The notes under the pieces: model-generated
The model's database searches: none
The model's input: only the letters and a program-made list of their open reading frames with translations
Told to the model about the DNA's origin: nothing
In this document: positions 480 to 60,751 of the stretch, in pieces
Position numbering within the stretch: position 1 is the first letter of the stretch
Layout: each line of letters starts with the position of its first letter
Program-made: the position numbers and the translations under genes
Source of the DNA: Escherichia phage vB_EcoM_ESCO49
Sequence record: OM386663.1
Length of the DNA: 64,000 nucleotides
Direction: 5' to 3' (one strand)

Positions 480-2096
480 TCAACGTCTAAGCCCCTCATA
501 TGGGTTTCCTCTCACTAAGTCTGTGTGAACACCCATTGATGGTGGCTTGAATAATTTAACTTCATTAAGACTGTTGAAAGCATCACTGGTAGCATCCACT
601 TGGTCATCTTTAGTTTTGCCATCACCACAAAAGCCTTCAAGCTCTTGAAAGTAAGCTTCATTCCAACTACCTCTCAAGACTTTTACAAGTCCAGCTTCAG
701 AAGCAGCAGAAAATCCCGCAAAGCGGGTAACTTTATCTTTATTTGTTGGTTTAGCTCTTGCACGATAGCCTTTCTCGGCAAGTTTCCTGATGAGGGATGT
801 TGCGTAGGATTTACCAGCAGCGCCTGGGTCTTGAGGGATAAAAATACCAGTTCGCTTACCGTCACTTTCAGCAGTCAAATTAATTTGTGTTTCGACTCCA
901 GAGGGTCTATCTCTAAATCTTACTACATCAATGATATAATAGCAACCGTCTTTTTTAGATTTACCCATCTTAACACCTGCTGTCCAGTCTGGATTAGGGT
1001 TAACCTCAGATGGTAAAGTTGCTGCTAAGTCCCATGCTCTAACATCAAATACATCTTCTGGGAGTGAATCAACAATCTCACACCATTGTCTTTGCCAATA
1101 GTTTGAACCTTCTGCACGAGCCTTCCAGTTACCAAAACGAAGTCTTGCAACGTTTACAGGAGTGTTGTTTTCCAACTTACCACGGTACTTAGGTTCTAAG
1201 AAGTCAAGGATTGGGTTATCATCAATCGTACCAGAGATAAAGGTGTATGTTTGAGGAATCTCAAGAGGGAACATTTCAAGAATCTTATCCCTTTCCCAAT
1301 CAGAAACCATCACACCATCATTCATTACATACCAACGAATACGACCACACTTTTCAGGGTCTGGATAACCTTCTTCATCTAAGAATGGTTCTACCCAATC
1401 GTAAATAAAGTGGTCTCTATCTGGGTTCATGGAAATCTTCATGTATGAATCACCTTCAGCACCAGAACGTAGACGGGTTTGTAGGTATGAAATCTGTGAA
1501 GCAGAGAAGTGTGTACCTTCGTCAAAGTAAATAGCTGAGTATTCAATACCCTGATGACCTTCAGCGTGCTTTTCAAGTTCTAGGTAGGTAAACTTGATAG
1601 TTGCCCCAGAAGGGAATGTGATAGTCATTTTCTGCTCGTGAGGAATCCCACCAAACTTACCAAATAGTTTCTTTGCAGCAGGCCATAAACCACCTTGTAA
1701 CTGTGTTGTGTTTCGACGGAAATACACAGCATTATAGTTGGGGTCTTCAATAAATCTTAAAGAGTCCATTAACAATGCGGCAGTCTTACCAGCACCAGCA
1801 GCACCACCATAAAGAACCAAGTCAGCATTAGTGTTTAAAAAAACCTCTTGAGAACCCGGCTGAGGGGCTACATAGTTCTTATCAGTCATCAATTTAAAGA
1901 TGAGGCGAACTTGGTCTGGTGTGTATCTTAATAAAGTCAGAATTTGAGTTGGAAGGAATTTAGAGGGGTCTTTACCGAATGATTTAATAATTTCTTTTAC
2001 TTCATCAGAAAGCCCCAACTCTCCAGCTAGGACTTTCCTAACATCTTCCACTCGCTTCTGCTTAACAGTATTTAAGTCCATTAAGCGCCTCCGCAA
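480..2096 (-). CDS. terL: terminase large subunit
   Basis: 538 aa; Walker A LYGGAAGAGKT near the N-terminus; size and C-terminal acidic nuclease-like region typical of TerL. Confidence 0.8.
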   Translation of the reverse strand: MRRRLMDLNTVKQKRVEDVRKVLAGELGLSDEVKEIIKSFGKDPSKFLPTQILTLLRYTPDQVRLIFKLMTDKNYVAPQPGSQEVFLNTNADLVLYGGAAGAGKTAALLMDSLRFIEDPNYNAVYFRRNTTQLQGGLWPAAKKLFGKFGGIPHEQKMTITFPSGATIKFTYLELEKHAEGHQGIEYSAIYFDEGTHFSASQISYLQTRLRSGAEGDSYMKISMNPDRDHFIYDWVEPFLDEEGYPDPEKCGRIRWYVMNDGVMVSDWERDKILEMFPLEIPQTYTFISGTIDDNPILDFLEPKYRGKLENNTPVNVARLRFGNWKARAEGSNYWQRQWCEIVDSLPEDVFDVRAWDLAATLPSEVNPNPDWTAGVKMGKSKKDGCYYIIDVVRFRDRPSGVETQINLTAESDGKRTGIFIPQDPGAAGKSYATSLIRKLAEKGYRARAKPTNKDKVTRFAGFSAASEAGLVKVLRGSWNEAYFQELEGFCGDGKTKDDQVDATSDAFNSLNEVKLFKPPSMGVHTDLVRGNPYEGLRR

Positions 2097-2525: not shown

Positions 2526-2601
2526 TGGAGAATCCGAAGGGACTTGAACCCTTATAAACCTGTTTTGCAGACAGGCACATATCCATTTCTGTCACGGATT
2601 C
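2526..2601 (-). tRNA. tRNA-Cys (anticodon GCA)
   Basis: CCA encoded; perfect 7-bp acceptor (2530-2536 with 2595-2601); T-arm AAGGG/ACTTGAA/CCCTT; anticodon stem CCTGT/ACAGG, loop reads CUGCAAA. Confidence 0.75.
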
Positions 2602-2606
2602 GAAAT

Positions 2607-2697
2607 TGGGGGAAGATACCAGACTTGAACTGGTACACCGATTTCTCAGCTACTGGCAGTTTAGCAAACTGCTCCCTTACCTTTAGGGTTAATCTTC
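2607..2697 (-). tRNA. tRNA-Ser (anticodon GCU), type II
   Basis: Perfect acceptor (2611-2617 with 2691-2697); T-arm ACCAG/ACTTGAA/CTGGT; 21-nt variable arm; anticodon loop UUGCUAA. Confidence 0.7.
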
Positions 2698-2699
2698 CA

Positions 2700-3434
2700 T
2701 TATCTCTGTAATGCGCTCTTCATTTCTGGTGTTGCAATAGTATCAATCACACCAGTTTTACAAGCATCATCAAACCAGTCTGGTAAGATACCTGCTAAGA
2801 ACCCATTGATATTCGTTTTAAGGTACTCTGCAATAAGGGCAGCTTCTTCTTCAATCATCTGCACAACTTCATCTGCATAAGCTGTAATCTTTGAGATACC
2901 TTCATTAATCTTACTAACAGCCTGATTAGCTAAATCAGAAACAGTCTCAAGACCCTTATCAATAGCGTCTTGTAAGTCACTTAACACACCATTAACACTG
3001 TCTAGTGTGCTGTTAATCATGTCAATAGCTTGCTGACCATACTCTGTAGCAACACCCATAATACCACTAAATGGTGTACAACCAACTTGTTCTCCTGCTG
3101 CACCCATAACATTGGAGTATCCCTTTGCTACCTGCATACGTGATGAAAACTCATCAATAGACTTTTGACCGTAGTCTGTTAGGGTCTTAGTAGTTGCTGT
3201 AGTGCTTGTAAGGCTTGTTGTAAAGCTGTTTAGAAGGACTGTTGTGAGTCCAGCAGCAACAAGCTTCTCCTTCATTGTAGGGTCTGTTACAGAGCTAATA
3301 GAGCTTACAAGTGATGTAGAGGCAGCTACGGTTCCACCGAGAACTGCTGCACCAGTAATAAGTGGGTTAGAAAACCCTCTACCGGTTTTTAAGAGATTAA
3401 AAATCTCCTTACCTTGTTCTGTCATCTCTTTCAT
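2700..3434 (-). CDS. hypothetical protein (Ala/Ser/Thr/Gly-rich, about 244 aa)
   Basis: Track ORF 2700..3482 trimmed to the ATG at 3434..3432 because the upstream part overlaps a tRNA; low-complexity N-terminal half, helical C-terminal half. Confidence 0.4.
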   Translation of the reverse strand: MKEMTEQGKEIFNLLKTGRGFSNPLITGAAVLGGTVAASTSLVSSISSVTDPTMKEKLVAAGLTTVLLNSFTTSLTSTTATTKTLTDYGQKSIDEFSSRMQVAKGYSNVMGAAGEQVGCTPFSGIMGVATEYGQQAIDMINSTLDSVNGVLSDLQDAIDKGLETVSDLANQAVSKINEGISKITAYADEVVQMIEEEAALIAEYLKTNINGFLAGILPDWFDDACKTGVIDTIATPEMKSALQR

Positions 3435-3450
3435 TAAGCACCTTTGAAAT

Positions 3451-3521
3451 TGGTACTCCATATCGGATTCGAACCGATACATAACACAGATTTTAAGTCT
3501 GGCCTCTCTGCCAATTGGAGT
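3451..3521 (-). tRNA. compact tRNA, anticodon UAA (Leu by anticodon; atypical)
   Basis: CCA encoded; T-arm ATCGG/ATTCGAA/CCGAT; 6 of 7 acceptor pairs; short D-arm; 4-bp anticodon stem, loop CUUAAAA. Fold is non-canonical, so isotype is uncertain. Confidence 0.45.
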
Positions 3522-3531
3522 AATGGAGCAT

Positions 3532-3607
3532 TGGCTGGGGATGTTGGAATTGAACCAACTTCTTCGATTTCAAAGACCGAGGTTTTAACCTTGTAAACTA
3601 ATCCCCT
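3532..3607 (-). tRNA. tRNA-Gln (anticodon UUG)
   Basis: CCA encoded; T-arm GTTGG/AATTGAA/CCAAC; acceptor 3536-3542 with 3601-3607 (1:72 unpaired); anticodon loop CUUUGAA. Confidence 0.6.
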
Positions 3608-3615
3608 TTAAATCT

Positions 3616-4173
3616 TTACTTTCTCAGTGGATGAATAAAGAATGCCAACATAACTCTTTCCCTTGAGAATGCTCTTTCTTCTGGGACAACACTTTTTAGT
3701 TTCCATCCAATATAAATTCTCCAGTAAAACTGTTTACCAAAGATTTTAATTGATGGGATAAAAGCGAATAATCCCCAAGCATTGCTATTCCACATTAGGA
3801 GATAACCAGTCTGATTATCTTCAGGGTCAGAACTTACGCTGATATTACCTTTCCACTTAGTAACATCTTTTACATCTCTTCCTAATACATGGTAAGAGAA
3901 GTTATAAGCTTTGTTTCTCCAGAGCCATCCAACTCTCTGCATGTAGACACCCAGCTTACCAATCTTTCTAATCTTAGCCCATCTTTTAACGTGGCCTTCA
4001 TCACCATCAATCGGGTTGTCATAGGTCTCCATCCATCTGAATCCAAAAGGTAGATGCCCTTTCTTCTCACTGTAGAATGGAACCACGAAAGGTGCTAAGA
4101 TGACTGCTAGGGTTGCTGCAAATGGTTCTAGTAAAGCTAGGAAAATCCATGAAGCATACTTCAAATATCTCAT
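3616..4173 (-). CDS. hypothetical membrane protein embedded in the tRNA cluster
   Basis: 185-aa ORF with a hydrophobic N-terminal segment (WIFLALLEPFAATLAVILAPFVVPF); fills the gap between tRNAs without overlapping them. Confidence 0.35.
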   Translation of the reverse strand: MRYLKYASWIFLALLEPFAATLAVILAPFVVPFYSEKKGHLPFGFRWMETYDNPIDGDEGHVKRWAKIRKIGKLGVYMQRVGWLWRNKAYNFSYHVLGRDVKDVTKWKGNISVSSDPEDNQTGYLLMWNSNAWGLFAFIPSIKIFGKQFYWRIYIGWKLKSVVPEERAFSRERVMLAFFIHPLRK

Positions 4174-4192
4174 CTAAATAGCCTCTTAAAAT

Positions 4193-4270
4193 TGGTGTTC
4201 CAAGACGGATTCGAACCGTCACTAATACAAGGTTTGAGCTTGCATCCTCTGCCAATTGGGATACTGGAAC
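4193..4270 (-). tRNA. tRNA with anticodon CAA (Leu by anticodon; short variable arm)
   Basis: CCA encoded; T-arm GACGG/ATTCGAA/CCGTC; acceptor 4197-4203 with 4264-4270 (one G-U); anticodon stem 5 bp including G-U, loop CUCAAAC. Confidence 0.55.
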
Positions 4271-4271
4271 A

Positions 4272-4346
4272 TGGTACTCACTAAAGGACTTGAACCTTTT
4301 TCTTCATCTTGTAAGGGTGATGTTTTACCATATAAACTAAGCGAGT
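4272..4346 (-). tRNA. tRNA-Val (anticodon UAC)
   Basis: CCA encoded; T-arm AAAGG/ACTTGAA/CCTTT; acceptor with one mismatch; anticodon loop CUUACAA. Confidence 0.6.
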
Positions 4347-4441
4347 GTGAAAGAGGTCTGAAGTTGTGCCGCTAACTCAACTCCGTGGAATTTGTTACGG
4401 TCTTCAGTTGACACCAGCGGTCTTTCACTTGACCTCTGAAT

Positions 4442-4518
4442 TGGTGCTGCTCACAGGACTCGAACCTGCATTTCCATCCTTACAAGGGATGTGTAATAGC
4501 CAATTATACGAAAGCAGC
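4442..4518 (-). tRNA. tRNA-Thr (anticodon UGU)
   Basis: CCA encoded; T-loop ACTCGAA; perfect anticodon stem CATCC/GGATG, loop CUUGUAA; acceptor 6 bp plus G-U. Confidence 0.7.
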
Positions 4519-4524
4519 ATTATT

Positions 4525-4599
4525 TGGAGCATCCAGAGGGAATCGAACCCTCAACCTCAGTTTGGAAGACTGTAATTTTCCCGTTTAAACTATGGATGC
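4525..4599 (-). tRNA. tRNA-Gly (anticodon UCC)
   Basis: CCA encoded; perfect acceptor (4529-4535 with 4593-4599); T-arm GAGGG/AATCGAA/CCCTC; anticodon loop CUUCCAA. Confidence 0.7.
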
Positions 4600-4605
4600 A
4601 CTAAT

Positions 4606-4681
4606 TGGTGGAGAAGCAGGGAATTGAACCCTGTACTTAAGTTTGCAAAACTTATGTTTTAACCATGTAAACTACATCCCC
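4606..4681 (-). tRNA. tRNA-Ala (anticodon UGC)
   Basis: CCA encoded; T-arm CAGGG/AATTGAA/CCCTG; D-stem GUUU/AAAC; perfect anticodon stem UAAGU/ACUUA, loop UUUGCAA. Confidence 0.7.
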
Positions 4682-4687
4682 AATGTT

Positions 4688-4763
4688 TGGTACAGGTGGA
4701 GGGAATTGAACCCATCGTCTTACTGATTAAGAGTCAGCCGCATAACCATTTTGCTACACCTGC
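4688..4763 (-). tRNA. tRNA-Lys (anticodon CUU)
   Basis: CCA encoded; acceptor GCAGGUG/CACCUGU with G1-U72; T-loop UUCAAUU; anticodon stem GCUGA/UCAGU, loop CUCUUAA. Confidence 0.6.
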
Positions 4764-4770
4764 ATTAATT

Positions 4771-4847
4771 TGGTACACCTAGAGAGATTCGAACTCACAC
4801 TGAGCAGATTCTAAGTCTGCTGCCTCTACCAGTTGGGCTATAGGTGC
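4771..4847 (-). tRNA. tRNA with anticodon UAG (Leu by anticodon; short variable arm)
   Basis: CCA encoded; T-arm GAGAG/ATTCGAA/CTCAC; perfect anticodon stem GCAGA/TCTGC, loop CUUAGAA; canonical D-loop AACUGGUAG; 5-nt variable region. Confidence 0.6.
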
Positions 4848-5102
4848 ATTAAACCTTTTTAGAGAACTTCTAAGAACCTAAGCAACAAGGTTCCACAACA
4901 AGCCGTAATAACCTTAGAAGCCCTCTAAAAAGACCTAAAAAGGTCTTTGCATAGTCTTGTTTAATCCGGTGACTAGAACCTTTGGAGAGCTTGATATTAT
5001 CTCTTCTCCGTGACACCTGCTAGGTGCTTTATGAGTGTGTACGACAATACACGCGGGATACCAAAGCAACACCCTAATGAAGCTTGGCTTTAAATCTTAT
5101 TA

Positions 5103-5192
5103 GGCGGTAAGTAAAGGAGTCGAACCCTCACCGTATCTCTACAGTGGCAACTGTTTTCAAGACAGTTTGGCTACCATTAGCCGCTACCTACC
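5103..5192 (-). tRNA. tRNA-Ser (anticodon UGA), type II
   Basis: Acceptor GGUAGGU/ACUUACC; 3-bp D-stem; perfect anticodon stem ACUGU/ACAGU, loop CUUGAAA; about 20-nt variable arm; T-loop UUCGACU; 3' end CC without the final A. Confidence 0.65.
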
Positions 5193-5205
5193 CCTAATAA
5201 GACTT

Positions 5206-5288
5206 TGGCATGGGACGGAGGAGTTGAACCCCTTTGAAACGGTGTTGGAAGCCGTTGCTCATGCCTTAGAGTCTTAACATCGTCCCAT
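5206..5288 (-). tRNA. tRNA, probably Trp (anticodon CCA), 80 nt with enlarged D region
   Basis: CCA encoded; perfect acceptor (5210-5216 with 5282-5288); T-loop AGTTGAA; best anticodon loop UUCCAAC; D region is about 7 nt longer than canonical. Confidence 0.45.
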
Positions 5289-5431
5289 ACTATAATTCGA
5301 AGCTTACCGTATTATCTCAACACTGTAAAGCCCCTTCTCAGATTATTTACATGTTCTGGAAAACATGAGATACAGACCACCTCCCTACAGGAAGACCCGC
5401 TTAGGTCGTCTAAGTAATCTGCTAACTAAAT

Positions 5432-5518
5432 TGGTCGAGGCGGCAGGACTCGAACCCGCATACTCCACTTACTCGGTTAACGTCTGTTTAGAAGACAGAT
5501 GAGATACGCCCCGTAATT
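5432..5518 (-). tRNA. atypical tRNA-like gene (anticodon-type loop UCU; canonical D-arm not foldable)
   Basis: CCA encoded; good acceptor CGGGGCG/CGCCUCG and T-arm GCGGG/UUCGAGU/CCUGC; perfect hairpin UCUGU/ACAGA with loop CUUCUAA; only 7 nt where the D-arm should be and 23 nt between that hairpin and the T-arm. Confidence 0.4.
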
Positions 5519-5850
5519 ATCTTTAAAGACTCTCTTAGAAAGCCCTTAAAGATGCCCACCTTATTAATCATACCGTGGGCTAGTACGCCAAATTCTTTGA
5601 TGAGGGATTGGAAGACCTCACTGGTGTTTAGCCTATCAAGCTACTGCCAGAAAAACATTGTCGTTTGCATTTATTTTAAATTTGCAAAATAGACGCTACG
5701 CAACGAAAACTATTCAGAATATGTACAACAAATTTCCCCACATTGTGTTACGTCTAACGCTCATGTATTGGTGTTTGAATTATACATATTATGAAGTATT
5801 TTAGTTACTATAAAGTGGTCACATCTCAATGTCAACAACTTTATTGAAAT

Positions 5851-5926
5851 TGGTACTGGTAGGTGGAATCGAACCACCGACGTTCCCTTATCAGGGGAGT
5901 GTTATAACCTTCTTAACTATACCAGC
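5851..5926 (-). tRNA. tRNA-Ile (anticodon GAU)
   Basis: CCA encoded; perfect T-arm GGTGG/AATCGAA/CCACC; acceptor with G1-U72; anticodon loop CUGAUAA. Confidence 0.65.
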
Positions 5927-5927
5927 T

Positions 5928-6004
5928 TGGAGGTTCAGATGGGAATCGAACCCACATTCATAGGGCTTATGAGACCCTTGCATTACCTTATCTGCGACTG
6001 AACC
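5928..6004 (-). tRNA. tRNA-Met (anticodon CAU; elongator-type, or Ile2 if lysidinylated)
   Basis: CCA encoded; perfect acceptor (5932-5938 with 5998-6004); T-loop AATCGAA; anticodon stem AGGGU/GCCCU, loop CUCAUAA. Confidence 0.65.
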
Positions 6005-6008
6005 ATTT

Positions 6009-6084
6009 TGGTAGAAGTGGAGGGACTCGAACCCATCGCCTGTCAGATTAAAAGTCTGCCACATCACTATTCTGCTACACTTCC
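6009..6084 (-). tRNA. tRNA-Lys (anticodon UUU)
   Basis: CCA encoded; T-loop ACTCGAA; acceptor with G1-U72; anticodon loop CUUUUAA. Confidence 0.6.
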
Positions 6085-6278
6085 ATTAAATTATCTTTGT
6101 AGATAAGCTACCCAGACTTGCTTAAGGTCTGTAGCGATGTGACTTTTTGGGTTTAAATCTAGAATTTACCCTTTCACCCTTTGTGGTCGCATACTCACAG
6201 GTAAGCTTAATAACTTATCTACAAAGATAATTACCAGACCATTGTTTATCATCTTAACTAGATATCTCATAAAGTGTT

Positions 6279-6366
6279 TGGTGTGCCGTGTAGGAGTCGA
6301 ACCTACCGAGTCTCAATGACAAGGGATTTACAGTCCCCACCGCTACCATCTACGGGATAACGACAC
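6279..6366 (-). tRNA. tRNA-Tyr (anticodon GUA), type II
   Basis: CCA encoded; perfect T-arm GTAGG/AGTCGAA/CCTAC; 3-bp D-stem; anticodon stem GGGGA/UCCCU, loop CUGUAAA; about 15-nt variable arm. Confidence 0.6.
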
Positions 6367-6435
6367 ATCTAATTTCTATTCAGGCTAAGGACTTGCACCT
6401 TACAAATCGGTGAGTAATCGCTTCTCTCCTAAATT

Positions 6436-6512
6436 TGGCGGTTAGTCAGGGATTCGAACCCTGTGCCATTCGCTTAACAGGCGACCGCACATACCTTATG
6501 TGCTTCCTAACC
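6436..6512 (-). tRNA. tRNA-Asn (anticodon GUU)
   Basis: CCA encoded; perfect T-arm CAGGG/ATTCGAA/CCCTG; acceptor 6 bp; anticodon stem UCGC/GCGA, loop CUGUUAA. Confidence 0.6.
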
Positions 6513-6597
6513 ATGTTTAGTATTACCAGACCGTATCTTTCAATTTTTTCTGCTAAAAATTTAATAAATATTGCTGTAAACGGTCTTCTGTAAAATT

Positions 6598-6674
6598 TGG
6601 AGGCGGGTGCAGGAGTCGAACCTGCCGATACCATGCTAATGAGACATGTGAGACGCCCTTTCTCTATACCCGCA
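6598..6674 (-). tRNA. second CAU-anticodon tRNA (Met, fMet or Ile2)
   Basis: CCA encoded; perfect T-arm GCAGG/AGTCGAA/CCTGC; acceptor 6 bp with 1:72 unpaired; anticodon stem CAUGU/GCAUG, loop CUCAUUA. Confidence 0.6.
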
Positions 6675-6804
6675 ATTCTTAATGACCAGACCAAATCTCT
6701 TCTTTGTCCGATTTACCTTCAGATGAATAAGATTAAGTTTGCTGTAATTGGTCTTCTGTCAAAACTGGCGTTCCAGAAGGGATTTGTCTACTGGAACATT
6801 AATT

Positions 6805-6881
6805 TGGTCTCTGTTGGAGGACTTGAACCTCCGGCCTTACCGCCCCAAACGGAACGCTCTACCAAGCTGAGCTAAACAGAG
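6805..6881 (-). tRNA. tRNA-Pro (anticodon UGG)
   Basis: CCA encoded; perfect acceptor (6809-6815 with 6875-6881); perfect T-arm GGAGG/ACTTGAA/CCTCC; anticodon loop UUUGGGG. Confidence 0.65.
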
Positions 6882-7045
6882 ATAAACTTTTCAAACTCTA
6901 TGTAACCACTTTAACACTATTTTTTAGTGGCTGTCAAGAACTTTTTTAAAATATTTTCAGTATCTTAGAAAAGCTCTCGTTTCGTTTCTATGTAGAACAT
7001 ATTAAAGGGTATTAAACACATTGTCAATACCCTTTTTAAAACTTT

Positions 7046-8461
7046 TTACCAGATATAACGGTCAATCATTACTGCTTTGAGCATTACGCTGATTGGGTCA
7101 AACTTCTCACCACCAAGCAGAGCTTTTAAAGTAGCTGGAGAGAAACCAGATACCATTGCTACACCGTTATCCTTAACAGATACTTCGCAAGTACCATTAC
7201 GGTTTGCTAAGTACCAGAATACCAGTTGTGGCATCTCATATCCAGCTTTTTTGTACTTACTCTGAATTTCTTCAAAGTTTGTACGACCGTTAGCTCCATC
7301 AACCTGATTGAACTCCATATCGGAGAATATGATAAGCTTACTTGGCATATCTTTCTGAGTCAAGTTATTTCTTTTACCTGTCTCAAGAATGCGGTCAAAA
7401 GCTGCTTGTAAGTTAGTTGAGCCATATTCAACGTGTCGCATCACCTGACGATGACGGTTTTGTAAATCACCACTCAGTTCGATGAAGTGAGGGTTTGTTG
7501 AATAAACCATCAACTCATTCTTAAAGCAACCTGTATTACGTTCTGCTACATACAAGGCAAGTGATACACCAATATCAAGAGCAGTAATTGAACCAAAATT
7601 CACCCAAGACATTGAGCCTGAAACATCAGACATACATAAGATGTTTTCACCTTCTGCCATCCAGTTTGGTAGTGCCTTCCACTGCTCATTAGCAACATCT
7701 GCATCACCATACTTAACAGATTTAATCACATCATATGGGTAAACAGCACCAGCATTAATCTTAGCCTCACCCTTTGATAAGGACTCTATGTAGGCTTTGT
7801 AGCGTTCTCCATCCTTACGGTTAAACAGCTTTTGGTAACGTGCAGCAGCAAGTGAAGGAATCTTACTGTAGTCAATCTTACCAAACTCGTTAGCAGAGAT
7901 TTTTTGCTCAACTGTATCAGAGAGTGCAGACAACAGTGTGCGGTACTCTTTCTCACTCAAGTTGGCAAACTTGCAGAAACGTTTTACAAACTGCTTATGA
8001 CGTGGTTTGACTCGTGGTAACCACTTGGCTGCCAAACCTGCTGTTGCAGGGTCTAGTAATGCTGCTTCTAAATGCTTGAAGGTATCTGTCTCAAAACGAG
8101 TACCTACGAAGATTTTGAAGTCATCAAAACGACCAAGTTCTGCAATCTTATCCATAATGCGAAGAACCTGTGTAGGCTCTAAAACTTTATCTTCAATCGC
8201 TTGAAGCAAAACAGTTCTGAAGGCTTTACGCTCACCCATACCTTCTCGTACATCTCGCATATGAAGCAAAATACGAACTGCAACATCAACATCCTCACGC
8301 AAAGCTTTGTAGAACAGGTCTGGTAAGAATTCTACATTGCTACGGCTTGAACCAGCAGCTTTGTAAAAGTCTACAAGAGCAGACATTGATGAAGTATGGT
8401 TTACAGCACCATTTTCAGTTCGACCTGCATGAAGGTGCGCATGTTTAAATAACTCGCTCAT
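7046..8461 (-). CDS. vWA-domain protein with MIDAS motif (possibly TROVE/Ro60-like)
   Basis: 471 aa; DxSGS MIDAS motif in ILCMSDVSGSMSW and a second vWA strand LIIFSDMEF; N-terminal about 270-aa helical domain; sits next to the tRNA cluster. The TROVE assignment is recalled architecture, not an alignment. Confidence 0.5.
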   Translation of the reverse strand: MSELFKHAHLHAGRTENGAVNHTSSMSALVDFYKAAGSSRSNVEFLPDLFYKALREDVDVAVRILLHMRDVREGMGERKAFRTVLLQAIEDKVLEPTQVLRIMDKIAELGRFDDFKIFVGTRFETDTFKHLEAALLDPATAGLAAKWLPRVKPRHKQFVKRFCKFANLSEKEYRTLLSALSDTVEQKISANEFGKIDYSKIPSLAAARYQKLFNRKDGERYKAYIESLSKGEAKINAGAVYPYDVIKSVKYGDADVANEQWKALPNWMAEGENILCMSDVSGSMSWVNFGSITALDIGVSLALYVAERNTGCFKNELMVYSTNPHFIELSGDLQNRHRQVMRHVEYGSTNLQAAFDRILETGKRNNLTQKDMPSKLIIFSDMEFNQVDGANGRTNFEEIQSKYKKAGYEMPQLVFWYLANRNGTCEVSVKDNGVAMVSGFSPATLKALLGGEKFDPISVMLKAVMIDRYIW

Positions 8462-8542: not shown

Positions 8543-8914
8543 TTATTTTTTGAGAGTCGCTACAGCAGAGAACGTTGGTTTGTTATCTGTCTGAGACTGA
8601 CCACCGTTATCAGAGGTCTTCTTAGTGTCTGCTGCAAGTGCTTTCATCTCACCTGCTGAGTGAGTAAAGATGGTTTTACCGACCTCAATCATGCTCTTGA
8701 TGGTTACGTCATCTGTGTTTAACCCGAACTCTGCAAGCTTAGCAGCGTCCCTTGTAACAATCGCTTCAAACAACTTTGCAGCAAACTCAGCAGAATTATC
8801 AATGGTCAGTTGAGCTTTTACGAGAGAGCTTTTGTTACGGGAGCCTTTTGGTCTTCCAGATGGGTTTCCAGACTGGCCTTTTTTAAACTGGCCTTTGTTT
8901 GTTCTGTTTTTCAT
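8543..8914 (-). CDS. hypothetical protein with basic Gly/Pro-rich N-terminus
   Basis: 123 aa; N-terminal KGQFKKGQSGNPSGRPKGSRNK motif, helical remainder. Confidence 0.5.
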   Translation of the reverse strand: MKNRTNKGQFKKGQSGNPSGRPKGSRNKSSLVKAQLTIDNSAEFAAKLFEAIVTRDAAKLAEFGLNTDDVTIKSMIEVGKTIFTHSAGEMKALAADTKKTSDNGGQSQTDNKPTFSAVATLKK

Positions 8915-15870: not shown

Positions 15871-16281
15871 ATGAAAATTAAAGAAGTAGTCCAAAAAGCA
15901 ATGCTTGACAACTCAACTAAAGATGAAATGTACAATGATATTTGTGATAAGTTGAATTGCTCAAGACATGCTGCTAAGATTCTTGTGCACTGTTTTATCT
16001 GGGAATGCTCAGAAGCTGGTGAGAATCTAAAAGAACCTGAAGTGAAAACAGTCCCTAAAGTTGGTAATGTATACCGTCTTAAAGACTTCAAGACTGGAAA
16101 GATTGTTGCAAAAGGTGTAGTAGAGTCTGTCTATCATGATGGTAAATACTTACTTAAAATATTTGAATATGATAGCCGCTATACACACTTGTGCGGTCTT
16201 ACATTCTTAGTAACAGAAGAAGACCTCATTAAAAACAATGACAACAAGTTTGCAGTACCAGATTACCAAGTTTTACGATAA
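15871..16281 (+). CDS. hypothetical protein
   Basis: 136-aa ORF with RBS. Confidence 0.45.
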   Translation: MKIKEVVQKAMLDNSTKDEMYNDICDKLNCSRHAAKILVHCFIWECSEAGENLKEPEVKTVPKVGNVYRLKDFKTGKIVAKGVVESVYHDGKYLLKIFEYDSRYTHLCGLTFLVTEEDLIKNNDNKFAVPDYQVLR

Positions 16282-16294
16282 TGGTGTGATAGCT

Positions 16295-16843
16295 ATGGAA
16301 AAAGATAACTTAAAAGAAGTTGAAGGTAACTACCTAGTCCTTGACTGGAGTGATATTCGAGAAGCATTATCCAAAGAAAGCCTTGACATACTGGAGCAGC
16401 TTGTCTTCTCAGTACGACATATCAGAGAAGTTAGGAATGGTAAAGAGCCACTTGAAGGAATCTTTGTAGAGAAGTCTTATCCGTTCTATGAAGACACTTT
16501 ACAGAAAGTTAAAATGTACTTTAAACAGAAGAACCGTAAAGTGGTCACTATGGTATCTCTTGGTGGGCAGAGTATGTCTATTATGGAAGATATCAATCCT
16601 AAGAGACCAAGTAAGGGTGTCTGTATAAAAATCACAGGGCATGAAGAGTATATCTCAATTGATGATTTTAGTGCACTCTGTAATGGTTCTGCTGTCTTTA
16701 ATGGGTTTCACTATGATATCCGAGTGTACCCAATCAAGGGAGATGCTGTTATGATGCAGATATTTGATATCAATGGTGGATTTACTCATTTTTATCAGAC
16801 AACCAAGTCATCATTGAAGACAGTTTTAGAAAGTCTGATTTAA
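16295..16843 (+). CDS. hypothetical protein
   Basis: Track ORF 16238..16843 trimmed to the internal ATG (MEKDNLKEV...) just after the upstream stop. Confidence 0.4.
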   Translation: MEKDNLKEVEGNYLVLDWSDIREALSKESLDILEQLVFSVRHIREVRNGKEPLEGIFVEKSYPFYEDTLQKVKMYFKQKNRKVVTMVSLGGQSMSIMEDINPKRPSKGVCIKITGHEEYISIDDFSALCNGSAVFNGFHYDIRVYPIKGDAVMMQIFDINGGFTHFYQTTKSSLKTVLESLI

Positions 16844-16851
16844 AATATCTT

Positions 16852-16882
16852 AAGAGCCTCCTTAATTGGGGGCTTTTTATTG
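16852..16882 (+). terminator. putative rho-independent terminator ending the plus-strand block
   Basis: GC-rich hairpin GAGCCTCC...GGGGGCT followed by TTTTTATT. Confidence 0.45.
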
Positions 16883-16889
16883 AGTGAAA

Positions 16890-18480
16890 ATTACGAAATT
16901 TATAATTTTTATAAAATTTTATCGGTTGTCCCAACCTCTGGGTCACCATCATACGTGAATAAAATATCTATCCTTCTTAACAACCTTCTTAATCTTACTC
17001 TCTATATAGTTATATAGTACTATATAGTATCTTAGTAACTATCTAGTGGTCTTAATAGCCTCTCTGTATAACCCTTCTAACAAGCCTTCTAACAAGCCCT
17101 CTAAACACTCTTCTAACAAGCCTTCTTAATAACCTATACAATCACCTTAACCATCCCTCTATACCCTCTTAGAAGCTCCTATACACCTCTTAATCTCTAT
17201 GTTACCTATGATACCCTCTATAGGTGTTCACTAGGCACTACTAAGCCTCTATATAGACTGTTTTAACAAACTTAACAGGAATATCTTTACAGACCTTATC
17301 TCACAAGGCCTAACACGGTACTAACAAGGTATCTTATAAACCTGTTTATGCCTGTATTTTAGAAAGACTGTATAGGTAATTATTCAGAATTTTAATTTTT
17401 TTTATAAAATAGGACTGTCAAGTCATTTTTTAGGGTCTTTGAAGGAACTCAAAAATATCTGTCTAGGATGTATATCTGCTTGGTAGCCCTTAACAGCCCT
17501 GTAACATCCCCTTTGCAAAATTTTAAAATATCATTAACAAACTCTTAACAACTCTCTCAAGCTCTTAACATCTCTCCAAAGGTCTTAACAAATTCTTAAT
17601 AGTTTTAACAAGAGGGTAACAAATTTCTAACAAGTGCTGAAAAGGCTTTACAGAATCTTAACAGATGATTAACAAGAGCTAACAAGTTAATTTTTAAGGG
17701 TTATTTTGTTAAGATAATTAACAAGTTCCTAACAAGTATTTAACCTTTTTAACAAGCTATTAACATGGTCACTACTCTTTTCTTATCGTTCCCTTTCTCT
17801 CTTAGTGATTCTCTAAACATACCTTTTAAAAGCTCTCTATAGCTCCTTGTAAGCTCTTTTAAGCCTCTTCCTAGTAATTACACCCCAACTATACAGACAC
17901 CTCTTTATAGAGCTTTACAGGAGCTTTTAAGGCTATGTCAAAGACTCTTACAAGGCTTTTACATGGTATTAACAGAGATTTAACAAGGGGCTAACAAGTT
18001 GCTAACAAGCATAACTATGTAGGGATTGTTAAGAATTTGTTAAAAAGATGTTAAAGGGGCTAGCATTTACGTAACTTTTACGTAACTTTTGAGTAACTTT
18101 ATAGCCCCTATAACATACTTTTAAGACACTATCAAGCCCTTTTTAGTAGTTCACGAGATACTAGTCAGCCTATAAGCTTATACCCTTATAAGGTTCTTTT
18201 AAGCCTCTAGAAAGCTTTATAAAGGGCTTTTAAGGGTGAGGTAATGCAATCCCTTAAGTTATATTGATAAGGCTGTTATAGGGCTTTATAGGGCGTTTTA
18301 GGGGTTGCCCTTCCCTTTCGGGTTATGGGCTTGTATTTAAGGGAAAGATTAGTTGATTTGATAAAAGGCTATAGAATAAGCTATAGAGTTATTGCTTTTT
18401 AAGGTATGGGATAGAGTCTATCGAACCAGTGGGGAGATTCTGGAAAGGTGAGGGAAAGGGTTGTATAAGGATTCGATAGA
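16890..18480. repeat. ORF-free region dense in short direct repeats (TAACAAG/TAACAG family and a triplicated ACGTAACTTTT)
   Basis: About 1.6 kb with no ORF over 60 aa on either strand; more than 25 copies of (C/T)TAACA(A/G)G, mostly in one orientation (for example CTAACAAGCC three times within 17060-17110, clustered copies 17540-17790 and 17960-18010); TACGTAACTTTT repeated around 18070-18105. Confidence 0.6.
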
Positions 18481-18482
18481 CG

Positions 18483-18540
18483 TAAAAAAGCCCCATTTAA
18501 GGGGCTGTATAAAGGTATCTGGGGCTATTTAGCCCCGCTG
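18483..18540 (-). terminator. tandem hairpin terminators ending the small-gene array
   Basis: Hairpins AGCCCC-ATTTA-AGGGGCT and GGGGCT-ATTT-AGCCCC; the first is followed on the minus strand by a U-run (plus AAAAAA 18483-18488). Confidence 0.45.
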
Positions 18541-18546
18541 CGTCGA

Positions 18547-18795
18547 TTAGTTGTAACCTTGTTTGCTGTAGTACAGAGAGATAATCAAGTCACCCCAATA
18601 ATGATAGTGATGCTCATCGTTTAGTGCCTCTTTTACGGCATCTTTCCAAAAGTCATCAGTTGGGTTATAGTCTGGGATAACTTGCTTGATAACTGTCTTC
18701 ACTAAGGAAAAGCATTCATCAGTTCCACCGATATCAAATTTAACATCCAGAGTATAACAGCCATAAGCGTTTACAGTTGCGCGGATAGTTGCCAT
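18547..18795 (-). CDS. small hypothetical protein (array gene 1)
   Basis: Track ORF 18547..18912 trimmed to the ATG at 18795, which follows the conserved leader CCTAAACTGGAGAaTCtAAAA; the track's N-terminal extension translates the conserved hairpin. Confidence 0.5.
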   Translation of the reverse strand: MATIRATVNAYGCYTLDVKFDIGGTDECFSLVKTVIKQVIPDYNPTDDFWKDAVKEALNDEHHYHYWGDLIISLYYSKQGYN

Positions 18796-18912
18796 TTTTA
18801 GATTCTCCAGTTTAGGAAGTAGTTTAAGGACTTTATTTAGTGGGGAGGTCATACCCTCCCCGTTGATTGACAATTTACAGATTTTTGATTGTATCGTCAA
18901 TGTCTTTTTCAA
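18796..18912 (-). promoter_or_regulatory. type A cassette: sigma70-like promoter, 5'UTR hairpin and RBS
   Basis: Minus-strand sense: TTGACG, 17 nt, TAAATT, then hairpin GGGGAGG-GTATGA-CCTCCCC, then CCTAAACTGGAGA RBS and ATG. Confidence 0.5.
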
Positions 18913-19405
18913 TATCTTTTAAAGTTTTTTCTAAGTTCTTGATATTGAAAGATAAGCCCTCTCCCAATGTCTTAGAGTAAACATCAGGGCGCAAGTCATG
19001 CAGTTCGATTTCTTCCACTTCAAAGAGACTAACCAGTTCACCGCTTACATTGTAAGCCATTGAAACAGTATTTACAGGGGCTTTGTAAAACTTGTTCAAC
19101 GACTTGATAGACCGTTCATAAGCCATTTTATAACCGTTTAAAAGGTTTTTAACGTGATTGCGAACGTTTTTACACTCATCTAAGTAAATCCCTAAGAATA
19201 ACGGCAATAACTCCGCTATAGCTTGCATAAAGTGAGAGACCACAACGGTTGCAACATTACGACGATGAACGTAATAAGCCCCTTTTCCTGATTTAGTGAT
19301 AGTTGCAAAGTGTACACCATTGCAGCGAAATTCGTAGGTATCTTTAACAGGTTTAGACATTACAGCATTTGAACGAATGAAGTTGATAGCTTTGAACTTG
19401 TTCAT
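18875..19405 (-). CDS. hypothetical protein (array gene 2)
   Basis: Track ORF 18875..19447 trimmed to the ATG at 19405 that follows the conserved leader GGAGATTCAAAATG. Confidence 0.5.
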   Translation of the reverse strand: MNKFKAINFIRSNAVMSKPVKDTYEFRCNGVHFATITKSGKGAYYVHRRNVATVVVSHFMQAIAELLPLFLGIYLDECKNVRNHVKNLLNGYKMAYERSIKSLNKFYKAPVNTVSMAYNVSGELVSLFEVEEIELHDLRPDVYSKTLGEGLSFNIKNLEKTLKDIEKDIDDTIKNL

Positions 19406-19470
19406 TTTGAATCTCCAGTTTAGGACTTTATTTAGCGGGGAGGTCATCCCTCCCGTTGATTAGTACTTTA
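19406..19470 (-). promoter_or_regulatory. type A cassette (5'UTR hairpin plus RBS)
   Basis: Conserved TTTGAATCTCCAGTTTAGG...GGGGAGGTCATCCCTCCC on the plus strand. Confidence 0.45.
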
Positions 19471-19621
19471 CTTGTTTTGATAGCTGATTGCAAGCAATTT
19501 TTTAAGTTTATCTATAAAGAGTCTTTTAAGTGAATCCCTTTTAGATAAACCCCCTCGAACAAATCTACCAATGTCAAGGGGTGTTGTCAATACTTTTTGA
19601 AAGTTTTTTGTAAGTTATTGA

Positions 19622-60246: not shown

Positions 60247-60459
60247 ATGGCTCTTAAAAAGTTACATCCCAGAAGCGGTTATGGTAAGATAATTGACGAT
60301 ACAGACGGCTTTACAGTCTTTACAGTTATCTGTCAAGATGATTCACAGATTGAAAAGACTCTTGATGATTATCTTAACGATGAACGTGAAAAGGTTAGGG
60401 CTACAAACATAGACTCACTGATTGACACTTCACGCAAACGGAAGAAGAAAGATGAATGA
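60247..60459 (+). CDS. hypothetical protein
   Basis: 70-aa ORF. Confidence 0.4.
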   Translation: MALKKLHPRSGYGKIIDDTDGFTVFTVICQDDSQIEKTLDDYLNDEREKVRATNIDSLIDTSRKRKKKDE

Positions 60460-60751
60460 GGTTTTTGACCCTTATGCCCCACAAGATGATTGGGAGGCTG
60501 ATAGAGAGGCTGAAATGGAGAGTTATATTTGTCCAATGGATGTAGACGAAATGAGAGACTTCGTTGCACATCGTTTTAAGAGAGAGATTAAATCCAGAGG
60601 TCTTTCTCAAGAGCAAGTTGCTAAAATTTGTGGTATCTCTCAGGCTCGTGTATCCAACATAATCCATCTCACTGGTAACGTCTCCCTTGAGTATATGTTG
60701 GAAGTGTGTGAAAAATTTGGTGTTAATTTCAATTTAAGGTTGGCAGATTAA
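60422..60751 (+). CDS. HTH (XRE-like) DNA-binding protein
   Basis: 109 aa; helix-turn-helix LSQEQVAKICGISQARVSNIIH. Confidence 0.55.
   Translation: MTLHANGRRKMNEVFDPYAPQDDWEADREAEMESYICPMDVDEMRDFVAHRFKREIKSRGLSQEQVAKICGISQARVSNIIHLTGNVSLEYMLEVCEKFGVNFNLRLAD

What the first reader, a model, noticed from the sequence alone, without database searches (positions are those of the whole stretch)
16890..18480. 1.6-kb ORF-free region saturated with TAACAAG-type direct repeats
No ORF over 60 aa on either strand, yet more than 25 copies of (C/T)TAACA(A/G)G, largely in one orientation, plus a triplicated TACGTAACTTTT and many AGCTCT/AAGCC-like short repeats. It lies between the plus-strand block and the divergently oriented small-gene array. 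The density and orientation bias suggest a protein-binding array (replication origin iterons, partition or packaging site, or injection-pause signal) rather than spacer DNA.
Basis: seen in the sequence. Interest (0 to 1): 0.7.

Follow-up and report, generated by a model that had tools for sequence, protein, structure and literature searches.

The report
Phage genome-end region with phased repeats
The gene-free 1.6 kb is where the linear genome of this Felix O1-like phage begins and ends (a 579-bp terminal repeat), and it is packed with about 35 copies of TAACA spaced one DNA turn apart, which look like docking sites for the DNA-packaging machinery and also match the binding site of the host oxygen-response regulator ArcA.

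Summary
Window 16880-18490 has no ORF over 56 aa. It carries TAACA 29 times on the + strand and 6 times inverted (2.4 expected), with 11 bp as the modal spacing.

The window is a Felixounavirus. By homology to two records deposited with real ends, 17482-18060 is the virion's 579-bp direct terminal repeat (DTR). The region is therefore the concatemer junction, insulated by convergent terminators.

The array is kept in 14 phages of four Ounavirinae genera, including Erwinia phages whose DNA is otherwise unalignable. The repeat boundaries are invariant and form an inverted repeat, G(G/C)TAGCCC..TTAACA.

Best explanation (0.5): a helically phased protein-binding array that marks and orients the terminase cuts. 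The likely binder is an unannotated small terminase (DUF5681, 8543-8914). The nearest known architecture is the CCTAAAG arrays at the phage T7 terminal repeat.

A serious rival (0.3) is the host regulator ArcA. Core, spacing and repeat number equal the ArcA-P box. A matrix built from published ArcA boxes gives 9 of the window's 10 sites at or above 15 bits, and one scores above every genuine box.

An iteron origin is less likely. The terminal repeat itself is already known; the array and its ArcA likeness appear undescribed.

The parts
16858..16880 (+). Rho-independent terminator that closes the + strand gene block. It shields the region from rightward transcription.
   Evidence: Stem-loop plus T run. 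The same position is annotated as a terminator in AYO145A and Moogle.
16960..17340 (+). Left flank outside the terminal repeat. It holds 8 TAACA repeats (16978, 17078, 17090, 17114, 17264, 17273, 17311, 17322) and a very conserved triple TATATAGT block at 16999-17030.
   Evidence: Conservation is 0.94 over 17004-17043.
17380..17450 (.). A+T-rich tract (T8, TATAAAA) just left of the repeat boundary. It could be a bending or unwinding element.
   Evidence: Read directly from the sequence. Conserved at 0.83-0.86. No function was tested.
17482..18060 (.). Equivalent of the virion's direct terminal repeat (579 bp, single copy in the window). It contains 20 TAACA and 4 inverted TGTTA.
   Evidence: Position 1 of the Pr103Blw record maps to 18060 and its last base to 17482. 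Its 581-bp repeat was derived with PhageTerm (PMC8303462). CRP22 carries an exact 579-bp terminal duplication with the same boundaries. Single copy in the window.
17482..17506 (+). Left boundary element GGTAGCCCTTAACAGCCCTGTAACA. It holds the cut site and two inward-facing repeats.
   Evidence: GTATATCTGCTT|GGTAGCCCTTAACA is nearly invariant in 13 phages of three genera (KMM2 begins AGTAGCCC). The surrounding 100 bp is the only DNA shared with the Erwinia phages.
17535..17765 (+). Main array: 15 TAACA repeats in groups of 2-3 at 11 bp (or 20 bp), plus one inverted copy at 17707.
17770..17945 (.). Repeat-poor core of the terminal repeat, with an inverted repeat AAAGCTCTCTATAG / CTTTATAGAGCTTT at 17829-17842 and 17903-17916.
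   Evidence: pair I25. Function unknown.
17947..18009 (+). Six repeats at strict 11-bp spacing: two TTACA variants, then four TAACA at 17970, 17981, 17992 and 18003.
18026..18060 (-). Three inverted repeats (TTGTTAAGAATTTGTTAAAAAGATGTTAA) that abut the right cut site GGGGC|TAGC.
   Evidence: These are the strongest ArcA-matrix sites in the window, 21.9 and 20.2 bits. The block is conserved in 13 phages, 11-13 of which keep each of the three repeats exact. Together with the left boundary it forms the inverted repeat G(G/C)TAGCCC..TTAACA.
18061..18100 (+). Three 11-bp units, (T)ACGTAACTTTT, just outside the right boundary. On the - strand they read AGTTAC, pointing towards the cut.
   Evidence: family D10. 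ArcA-matrix score 14.2 bits for two of them on the - strand. Copy number varies between phages.
18100..18480 (+). Right flank with other short repeats (YTTTTAAGR, TATAGGGC/GCCCTATAA). In the Erwinia phage Hena2 this flank carries CTTAGAAG-type repeats instead (TTAGAAG 8 times, CTTAGAA 7 times).
18489..18506 (-). Rho-independent terminator that closes the - strand small-gene array.
   Evidence: Annotated as a terminator in AYO145A.
8543..8914 (-). 123-aa DUF5681 protein, the candidate small terminase (TerS). It is the first ORF of at least 55 aa in the run of - strand genes that continues through the tRNA cluster to TerL.
   Evidence: Pfam DUF5681, E=2e-14. DUF5681 genes lie directly upstream of TerL in three unrelated contig families. 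The invariant N-terminal motif is FKKGQSGNPxGRPKGS.
480..2096 (-). Large terminase (TerL), the enzyme expected to cut at the repeat boundaries.
   Evidence: 99% identical to annotated TerL of felixounaviruses.

Best explanation
The region is the concatemer junction of a Felix O1-like phage. In replicating DNA, one copy of a 579-bp terminal repeat (17482-18060) joins successive genomes. Terminase cuts at its two boundaries, and the repeat ends up duplicated at both ends of each packaged genome.

The TAACA units are binding sites for one protein. They sit one helical turn (11 bp) apart, so they lie on one face of the DNA, in head-to-tail groups of 2-6. Groups point towards the cut sites. The right cut is flanked by 3+3 converging units. 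The left cut has two units just inside it, in mirror orientation to those at the right boundary.

I propose that the bound protein is the phage's small terminase, the DUF5681 protein at 8543-8914. An oligomer of this protein would present its basic GRP-containing N-terminal arms to successive turns of the DNA. That would mark the junction and position the large terminase to nick at G(G/C)TAGCCC. The convergent terminators keep RNA polymerase from stripping the complex.

Shown: the location of the ends (by homology), the phasing, the orientation, the conservation, and the TerS-type gene context of DUF5681.
Inferred: that the array is bound at all, that TerS is the binder, and the cutting geometry.
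For: 1. The ends map inside the array.
- Pr103Blw has a PhageTerm-derived 581-bp DTR and CRP22 an exact 579-bp duplication. Both give boundaries at window 17482 and 18060.
- Other records start or stop at the same points, and the Hena2 record starts at the equivalent of the right boundary.
- Independent papers report short DTRs in felixounaviruses.

2. The boundaries are almost invariant across three genera (one substitution in KMM2) and form an inverted repeat that includes a TTAACA unit. The strongest and best-conserved triple unit abuts the right cut.

3. The array is under selection.
- 31 unit positions are kept in at least 7 of 13 phages, and 361 of 399 cells keep the exact core.
- The same motif and spacing occur in the Erwinia phage Hena2, where the DNA is otherwise unalignable.

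4. The spacing of 11 bp is far beyond chance.

5. DUF5681 occupies the TerS position next to TerL in three unrelated contexts.

6. The distant relative PAK_P2 (TerL 41% identical) has neither the array nor a DUF5681 protein.

7. Phage T7 has the same kind of one-orientation short-repeat array in and beside its terminal repeat.
Against: - No binding data exist for any protein.
- About 35 sites over 1.2 kb is far more than any characterised terminase recognition site uses, and 8 units lie 160-500 bp outside the repeat.
- The wrap-around model of TerS binding is itself disputed (PMC9611059).
- The structure model of the DUF5681 protein is poor (pLDDT 68). No helix-turn-helix was found. Its AT-hook resemblance rests on E=0.66.
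- Distant DUF5681 phages show no phased arrays within 4 kb of the gene.
- The PAK_P2 contrast is a single comparison.
- The motif matches a host regulator so well that the binder may not be a phage protein.
- The ends of this particular phage were not measured. They are inferred from relatives that are 87-89% identical in this region.
Confidence: 0.5

Rival explanations
1. The array is bound by the host response regulator ArcA in its phosphorylated form (ArcA-P). ArcA-P could act as an accessory DNA-bending factor for end formation, as IHF does at the lambda cos site. Alternatively, it could tie packaging or replication to the host's redox state. Or the array could act as a sponge: hundreds of phage copies, each with about 35 sites, would titrate ArcA-P and lift repression of respiratory genes.
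For: - The published ArcA site is a set of 2-5 direct repeats with core TGTTA at 11 bp centre to centre, with extra repeats at 11 or 22 bp (PMC4173790 and PMC3798270). The phage array has the same core, the same spacing, groups of 2-6, and 20-22 bp gaps.
- A matrix built from 115 of the 128 published boxes puts 9 of the window's 10 sites at or above 15 bits in this region, where the mean genuine box scores 15.7. The best site scores 21.9 bits, above the best genuine box at 21.5.
- All 14 phages have 6-9 such sites, with best scores of 20.5-24.1. Dinucleotide shuffles give a mean of 0.03-0.16 and a maximum of 2.
- Single-base variants fall at core positions 1, 4 and 5 (21 cases) rather than 2 and 3 (4 cases), as the ArcA matrix tolerates.
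- Only the core is constant across genera while the flanks drift. That pattern suits a conserved host protein.
- All hosts are Enterobacterales. The Pseudomonas relative lacks the array.
- No ArcA-like protein is encoded by the phage.
Against: - Any TGTTAA array at 11 bp would score well, so the matrix result is not independent of the first observation.
- The phage spacers are not A+T-rich. C at position -1 (0.48) and G at position 6 (0.28) are bases ArcA boxes disfavour (0.02-0.06).
- These phages grow well on aerobic laboratory cultures, where ArcA-P is low.
- The sites are not at promoters.
- No paper links ArcA with Felix O1-like phages.
- That Pseudomonas lacks an ArcA orthologue is from my own knowledge and was not tested here.
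Confidence: 0.3
2. The array is an iteron-type replication origin. An initiator protein binds the repeats and opens the adjacent A+T-rich tract at 17380-17450.
For: - Direct repeats in one orientation beside an A+T-rich tract.
- Shielded from transcription by terminators on both sides.
- It is the only large gene-free stretch seen in the Bas63 annotation.
Against: - No initiator-like gene was found among the five flanking ORFs scanned (all without a Pfam match) or in the Bas63 annotation.
- No DnaA box with up to one mismatch lies in the region.
- The replication genes are of the T7 type (primase-helicase, family A polymerase). Such phages are known to start replication from promoters (my own knowledge).
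- GC skew follows the direction of transcription and does not mark an origin.
- The tight link between the units and the two cut sites is not explained by an origin.
Confidence: 0.12
3. The array acts on the incoming linear DNA. It could be an injection-pause signal like that in the T5 terminal repeat, or a protein cap that protects the ends from RecBCD, or a device that pairs the two terminal repeats for recombination.
For: - The units lie at both virion ends, and both 5' ends read inward as GCCC..TTAACA-N6-TAACA.
- The authors of the PhageMaP study suggest that Bas63 lacks a RecBCD inhibitor.
Against: - There is no evidence for two-step DNA transfer in these phages.
- No DnaA boxes are present.
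- Eight units lie outside the repeat, on one side only.
- Nothing here is testable by sequence alone.
Confidence: 0.05
4. The region encodes non-coding RNAs or a cluster of phage-specific promoters, and the repeats are promoter elements.
For: - TATAGT/TATATAG-like blocks are present.
- Weak sigma-70-like matches number 11, against 8.1 expected.
Against: - No Rfam match was found. The best E-value was 0.74, at the terminator.
- Promoter-like matches are at the chance level.
- There are no good TTGACA/TATAAT pairs like those between the early genes.
- Repeats spaced 11 bp apart in groups of up to six are not a promoter layout.
Confidence: 0.03

Closest known systems
Short-repeat arrays at the phage T7 concatemer junction (CCTAAAG repeats in and beside the 160-bp terminal repeat)
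   Same: - A short direct terminal repeat with a gene-free neighbourhood.
- A 5-7 bp unit repeated many times in one orientation, both inside the repeat and just outside it, at a regular spacing.
- Read directly from T7: 11 CCTAAAG in bp 1-340 (3 inside the repeat, 8 to its right), with a modal spacing of 13 bp.
   Different: - The unit sequence differs (TAACA against CCTAAAG) and so does the spacing (11 bp against 13 bp).
- There are about three times more copies here.
- Inverted groups converge on the cut site here.
- The repeat is 579 bp against 160 bp.
- The T7 junction has no ArcA-like site.
- The phages are unrelated (myovirus against podovirus).
- To my knowledge, the function of the T7 arrays has not been settled either.
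ArcA-P binding sites of Escherichia coli (ArcA box; OmpR/PhoB-family direct repeats)
   Same: - Core TGTTA.
- 11 bp centre to centre.
- Head-to-tail groups of 2-5, with extra units at 22 bp.
- Scores equal to or above genuine boxes.
   Different: - Chromosomal sites have 2-5 units at promoters. Here about 35 units lie in a transcription-free zone at the genome ends.
- The spacers are not A+T-rich, and some flanking bases are disfavoured by ArcA.
- Binding has not been tested.
Terminase recognition sites built from repeated elements (P1 pac hexamers, lambda cosB R sites, SPP1 pacL/pacR)
   Same: Repeated short elements on both sides of a terminase cleavage site, read by the small terminase. This comparison is from my own knowledge. 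The general models of TerS binding are reviewed in PMC9611059.
   Different: - Those sites span about 100-200 bp with 3-7 elements and belong to cos or headful packaging phages.
- This one spans 1.2 kb with about 35 elements in a terminal-repeat phage.
- The candidate TerS has no recognisable helix-turn-helix.
Iteron arrays of plasmid or phage origins, and the 11-bp iterons of type II partition sites (parC of plasmid R1)
   Same: Direct repeats with a period of one helical turn that bind a protein cooperatively. Unrelated viral contigs do carry exact 11-bp TGTTAA iterons in intergenic DNA.
   Different: - No initiator or ParM/ParR genes lie beside the array.
- The units here are short cores in variable 11-bp frames, not exact tandem copies.
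- The array is tied to the genome ends.

Membership tests
Direct terminal repeat region of Felixounavirus genomes | The sequence is homologous to the stretch duplicated exactly at both ends of virion DNA in relatives. | tested here: met
   Pr103Blw (581 bp, PhageTerm) and CRP22 (579 bp, exact) both map to window 17482-18060.
Direct terminal repeat region of Felixounavirus genomes | The boundary sequences are conserved among relatives. | tested here: met
   Both boundaries are conserved in 13 phages of three genera; the only change is G to A at the first base of the left element in KMM2.
Direct terminal repeat region of Felixounavirus genomes | The physical ends of this phage's own DNA lie at these positions. 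| not testable with these tools
   This needs sequencing reads or restriction mapping of virion DNA. The window holds a single copy.
T7-type concatemer-junction short-repeat array | A short unit repeated in one orientation inside and next to the terminal repeat, at a regular spacing. | tested here: met
   20 units lie inside the repeat, 8 to its left and 1 TAACA plus 3 TAACT variants to its right (9 TAACA outside in all), with a modal spacing of 11 bp. T7 was read for comparison.
T7-type concatemer-junction short-repeat array | Sequence relatedness to the T7 unit (CCTAAAG) or to T7-like phages. | tested here: not met
   The unit and the spacing both differ. The phage is an Ounavirinae myovirus.
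ArcA-P binding site | At least two direct repeats with core TGTTA at 11 bp centre to centre. | tested here: met
   11 adjacent pairs sit at exactly 11 bp. The definition is taken from PMC4173790 and PMC3798270.
ArcA-P binding site | A score of at least 9-10 bits against the published 18-bp ArcA box matrix (15 bits is average). | tested here: met
   29 sites at or above 9 bits and 9 at or above 15 bits, with a best score of 21.9. Shuffles give 0.14 sites at or above 15 bits.
ArcA-P binding site | An A+T-rich spacer and flanks as in the published logo. | tested here: inconclusive
   Position 0 (T) and position 6 (A) agree with the logo. Position -1 (C, 0.48) and G at position 6 (0.28) disagree.
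ArcA-P binding site | Occupied by ArcA-P in vitro or in vivo. | not testable with these tools
   Needs footprinting or ChIP. No literature link was found.
Iteron-type replication origin | An iteron array next to an A+T-rich unwinding element. | tested here: inconclusive
   Both the array and an A+T-rich tract at 17380-17450 are present. Unwinding was not tested.
Iteron-type replication origin | A cognate initiator gene nearby, or host DnaA boxes. | tested here: not met
   The five flanking ORFs scanned have no Pfam match, and their PHROGs families have no known function. No DnaA box is present.
Terminase recognition (pac/cos-type) site | Repeated elements flanking the terminase cleavage site. 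| tested here: met
   3+3 converging units flank the right cut and 2 units lie just inside the left cut.
Terminase recognition (pac/cos-type) site | Bound by the phage's small terminase. | not testable with these tools
   Only a candidate TerS was identified, from gene context.
Type II partition centromere (parC-like) | 11-bp iterons beside a parM/parR operon. | tested here: not met
   No partition genes are annotated in the whole Bas63 genome, and the phage is strictly lytic.
T5-type injection stop signal | A repeat-rich non-coding stretch inside the terminal repeat that pauses DNA entry. | not testable with these tools
   The location in the terminal repeat is similar. The DnaA boxes I recall for T5 are absent here. 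Entry kinetics are unknown.

The most novel reading that the evidence does not exclude
A virulent enterobacterial phage has built its genome ends out of consensus binding sites for the host redox regulator ArcA. ArcA-P coats the terminal repeat and the concatemer junction. End formation, packaging or replication would then respond to oxygen and quinone status. Alternatively, the amplifying phage DNA soaks up ArcA-P and lifts repression of host respiratory metabolism without needing any phage protein.
Probability: 0.3. Interest if true: 0.85.

Novelty: new variant of a known kind. Interest (0 to 1): 0.6.

Why it matters
Felix O1-like phages are classic Salmonella typing phages and are widely used in biocontrol and therapy cocktails. 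Even so, their packaging signal, small terminase and origin of replication are unassigned.

This analysis does four things:
- It places the genome ends inside the array.
- It defines the two cut-site motifs.
- It proposes a small terminase, the DUF5681 protein.
- It gives a concrete set of sites to mutate.

This helps with correct genome annotation, where many records are opened arbitrarily. It also helps with engineering these phages and with understanding how terminal-repeat phages recognise a concatemer junction, a question that I believe is still open even for T7.

If the ArcA reading is right, it would be a rare case of a lytic phage using a host global regulator through DNA sites alone. 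It would also link phage production to oxygen availability in the gut.

Tried and rejected
- **RNA families.** An Rfam scan of 16000-19500 found nothing real.
- **Promoters.** Sigma-70-like matches are at the chance level.
- **Host-factor sites.** No IHF consensus and no DnaA boxes lie in the region.
- **GC skew.** It follows gene orientation and does not mark an origin.
- **Phage-encoded ArcA.** A phmmer search with ArcA and its DNA-binding domain, against all ORF segments of the window plus the rest of a Bas63 genome, found nothing.
- **Structure of the DUF5681 protein.** The model had low confidence (pLDDT 68: a disordered basic N-terminus and two long helices), so I did not run a fold search. 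A profile search of solved structures gave only E=0.34-0.72 hits, including an AT-hook peptide.
- **Pattern scan of IMG/VR.** Three TGTTAA units at 11 bp hit many unrelated contigs. Some carry exact 11-bp iterons. This says nothing about ArcA.
- **Distant DUF5681 phages.** No phased arrays lie within 4 kb of the gene.
- **Pakpunavirus PAK_P2.** It has no phased array anywhere in its genome.
- **PhageMaP study of Bas63.** The text does not report scores for this intergenic region and no supplement is held.
- **Genome papers.** The Felix O1 and wV8 papers do not mention the region.
- **KMM2 terminal overlap.** The 64-bp overlap is probably an assembly artefact, not a true repeat.
Full report
**What the window is.** The 1.7 kb around the finding matches 256 phage records at 80-91% identity. 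They are almost all Escherichia, Salmonella, Shigella and Citrobacter phages, and those examined in detail belong to the subfamily Ounavirinae. The window is therefore a Felix O1-like myovirus. It also carries TerL (480-2096, - strand), 19 tRNA genes and T7-type replication genes.

**Checking the observation.**
- No ORF over 56 aa lies in 16890-18480.
- TAACA occurs 29 times on the + strand and 6 times inverted in 16880-18490, against 2.4 expected. TAACAAG occurs 14 times against 0.15 expected.
Eleven of the 28 nearest-neighbour distances are exactly 11 bp and four are 20 bp. Random placement gives a mean of 0.42 distances of 11 bp, and never more than 5 in 20,000 trials.
- 'TACGTAACTTTT' is two exact copies plus one variant, again 11 bp apart.
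- The other short repeats are only mildly enriched.
- The flanking gene blocks are convergent, each ending in a terminator that faces the region.

**The region holds the genome ends.**
- Several GenBank records start or stop inside the region at the same two points.
- Escherichia phage Pr103Blw is deposited with a 581-bp direct terminal repeat derived with PhageTerm (PMC8303462). Its first base aligns to window 18060 and its last base to 17482.
- Phage CRP22 carries an exact 579-bp duplication at its two ends, with the same boundaries.
- Two further papers report short terminal repeats in felixounaviruses.
- So 17482-18060 is the equivalent of the terminal repeat. It is present once in the window. 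The gene-free region is the junction between successive genomes in replicating DNA.
- For this particular phage, the ends are inferred by homology and were not measured.

**Anatomy relative to the ends.**
- The repeat holds 20 TAACA and 4 inverted copies.
- Reading left to right, the parts are:
  - eight units in the left flank;
  - an A+T-rich tract;
  - the left boundary, TT|GGTAGCCCTTAACAGCCCTGTAACA;
  - a main array of 15 units;
  - a repeat-poor core of about 180 bp with its own inverted repeat;
  - six units at strict 11-bp spacing;
  - three inverted units ending at the right boundary, ...GATGTTAAAGGGGC|TAGC;
  - three GTAAC-type units outside the boundary that point back towards the cut.
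- The two boundaries are conserved in 13 phages of three genera, the only change being one base in KMM2. Together they form an inverted repeat, G(G/C)TAGCCC(CC)TTAACA. Both virion 5' ends therefore read inward through the same element.

**Conservation.**
- Fourteen phages of four genera (Felixounavirus, Mooglevirus, Suspvirus and the Erwinia-infecting Kolesnikvirus) each have 21-32 forward and 5-10 inverted TAACA, with 11 bp as the commonest spacing.
- In a 13-phage alignment, 31 unit positions are shared by at least seven phages. Of 399 cells, 361 keep the exact core.
- Motif positions are more conserved than the rest of the region, 0.91 against 0.83.
- The region aligns end to end with the Suspvirus mistaenkt, at 78.6% over 1604 bp. 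The flanking genes align only in patches.
- With the Erwinia phages, the only DNA similarity is about 100 bp around the left boundary. The same motif and phasing are present there all the same.
The repeats are far above the expectation from composition, and the region is conserved.

**Who binds it? The phage candidate.**
- No small terminase is annotated in these phages.
- The 123-aa protein at 8543-8914 belongs to DUF5681.
- In three unrelated families of contigs, a DUF5681 gene lies directly upstream of a large terminase gene and overlaps it. That is the standard position of a small terminase.
- In this phage, the candidate is separated from TerL by a 471-aa gene, which the PhageMaP authors describe as structurally similar to Ro60, and by the tRNA cluster.
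- Its invariant N-terminus, FKKGQSGNPxGRPKGS, is basic and contains a GRP core. The structure model shows a disordered N-terminus and two long helices at low confidence.
- An oligomer that presents such arms to successive turns of DNA would fit head-to-tail sites 11 bp apart. This is an inference, and the wrap-around model of small terminase binding is itself contested.
- The Pseudomonas phage PAK_P2, whose TerL is 41% identical, has neither a phased array nor a DUF5681 protein. That is one supporting contrast, no more.

**Who binds it? The host candidate.**
- The reverse complement of the unit is TGTTA at 11 bp centre to centre. That is the published definition of the binding site of phosphorylated ArcA, which has 2-5 direct repeats and extra ones at 11 or 22 bp.
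- To test this rather than rely on memory, I built the 18-bp matrix from 115 of the 128 ArcA boxes in Table S3 of Park et al. and scanned the whole window.
- Of ten sites at or above 15 bits, where the mean genuine box scores 15.7, nine lie in this region. The best site, the triple unit at the right boundary, scores 21.9 bits. The best genuine box scores 21.5.
- All 14 phages have 6-9 such sites, with best scores of 20.5-24.1. Dinucleotide shuffles give 0.03-0.16.
- Single-base variants of the core fall at the positions ArcA tolerates, 21 against 4.
- Against this reading:
  - any TGTTAA array at 11 bp must score well;
  - the spacers are not A+T-rich;
  - C at position -1 and G at position 6 are disfavoured in real boxes;
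  - the sites are not at promoters;
  - these phages grow well in air;
  - no paper connects ArcA with them.
- The phage encodes no detectable ArcA-like protein.
- I rate ArcA binding at about 0.3. It could coexist with the packaging role, as IHF does at the lambda cos site.

**Other readings.**
- An iteron origin is possible because of the adjacent A+T-rich tract. But there is no initiator gene and no DnaA box, and an origin does not explain why units converge on the cut sites.
- A role on incoming DNA (pause, end protection or pairing of the two repeats) cannot be tested here.
- RNA or promoter readings have no support.

**Comparison with what is known.**
- I read the T7 ends directly. CCTAAAG occurs 11 times in one orientation within bp 1-340, three times inside the 160-bp terminal repeat and eight times just to its right, mostly 13 bp apart.
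- That is the same kind of architecture with a different unit, spacing and scale, in an unrelated phage. It carries no ArcA-like sites.
- The short terminal repeat of felixounaviruses is already published. I found no description of the array, its phasing, the boundary inverted repeat, the DUF5681 small-terminase candidate or the ArcA likeness.
- I therefore file this as a new variant of a known kind.

**Verdict.** The finding is real and functional.
- It is almost certainly (about 0.9) the concatemer junction and terminal repeat.
- The array is most likely the recognition platform for end formation and packaging (0.5).
- Host ArcA-P is a testable and more surprising alternative or partner (0.3).

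Noticed in passing
window 8543-8914 (- strand): A 123-aa DUF5681 protein, annotated as hypothetical in the Bas63 record and in every named database homolog returned. In three unrelated contig families its homologues sit directly upstream of a large terminase gene. It is probably the missing small terminase of Felix O1-like phages. Here it lies 6.4 kb from TerL.
   Followed up: partly
window 2526-8461 (- strand): Between the small-terminase candidate and TerL lie three kinds of insert: a 471-aa protein that the PhageMaP authors describe as Ro60-like, 19 tRNA genes, and two proteins of unknown function (DUF7338 and DUF7217). It is an unusual insertion into what is normally a tight terminase operon.
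   Followed up: no
window 16999-17043: A triple TATATAGT block (CTATATAGTTATATAGTACTATATAGTATC) is the most conserved 40 bp of the whole region (0.94). It contains no TAACA unit, so a second, unidentified element lies here.
   Followed up: no
window 18100-18480; Hena2 junction positions 1000-1320 (window orientation): The right flank carries a different one-orientation repeat: YTTTTAAGR and TATAGGGC in this phage, and CTTAGAAG-type repeats in the Erwinia phage Hena2 (TTAGAAG 8 times, CTTAGAA 7 times). Unlike TAACA, this motif changes between genera.
   Followed up: partly
L076 12650-12890; L104 175-215; L087 7318-7360; L064 11270-11360: Unrelated viral contigs with about 50% G+C carry exact 11-12 bp iterons that contain TGTTAA/TTAACA in intergenic DNA. 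In L076 they form two mirrored sets of four.
   Followed up: partly
L007/L008 (Citrobacter phage KMM2, OP902295.1): The record has a 64-bp overlap between its two ends. It falls at the left boundary of the terminal repeat (window 17494-17557). The assembly probably broke at the step in read depth, so the true repeat is not represented in the record.
   Followed up: partly
window 60422-60751 (+ strand): A 109-aa Cro/C1-type helix-turn-helix protein (HTH_3, E=6e-10). It is the only recognisable DNA-binding regulator among the ten proteins scanned. Proteins of this type usually bind palindromes, so it is a poor match for the direct-repeat array.
   Followed up: no
window 61316-61333 (- strand) and 2981-2998 (- strand): Two isolated ArcA-matrix hits outside the region, 16.6 and 14.9 bits. 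The one at 2981 lies inside the DUF7217 ORF; the context of the other was not checked. Their number is consistent with chance.
   Followed up: no
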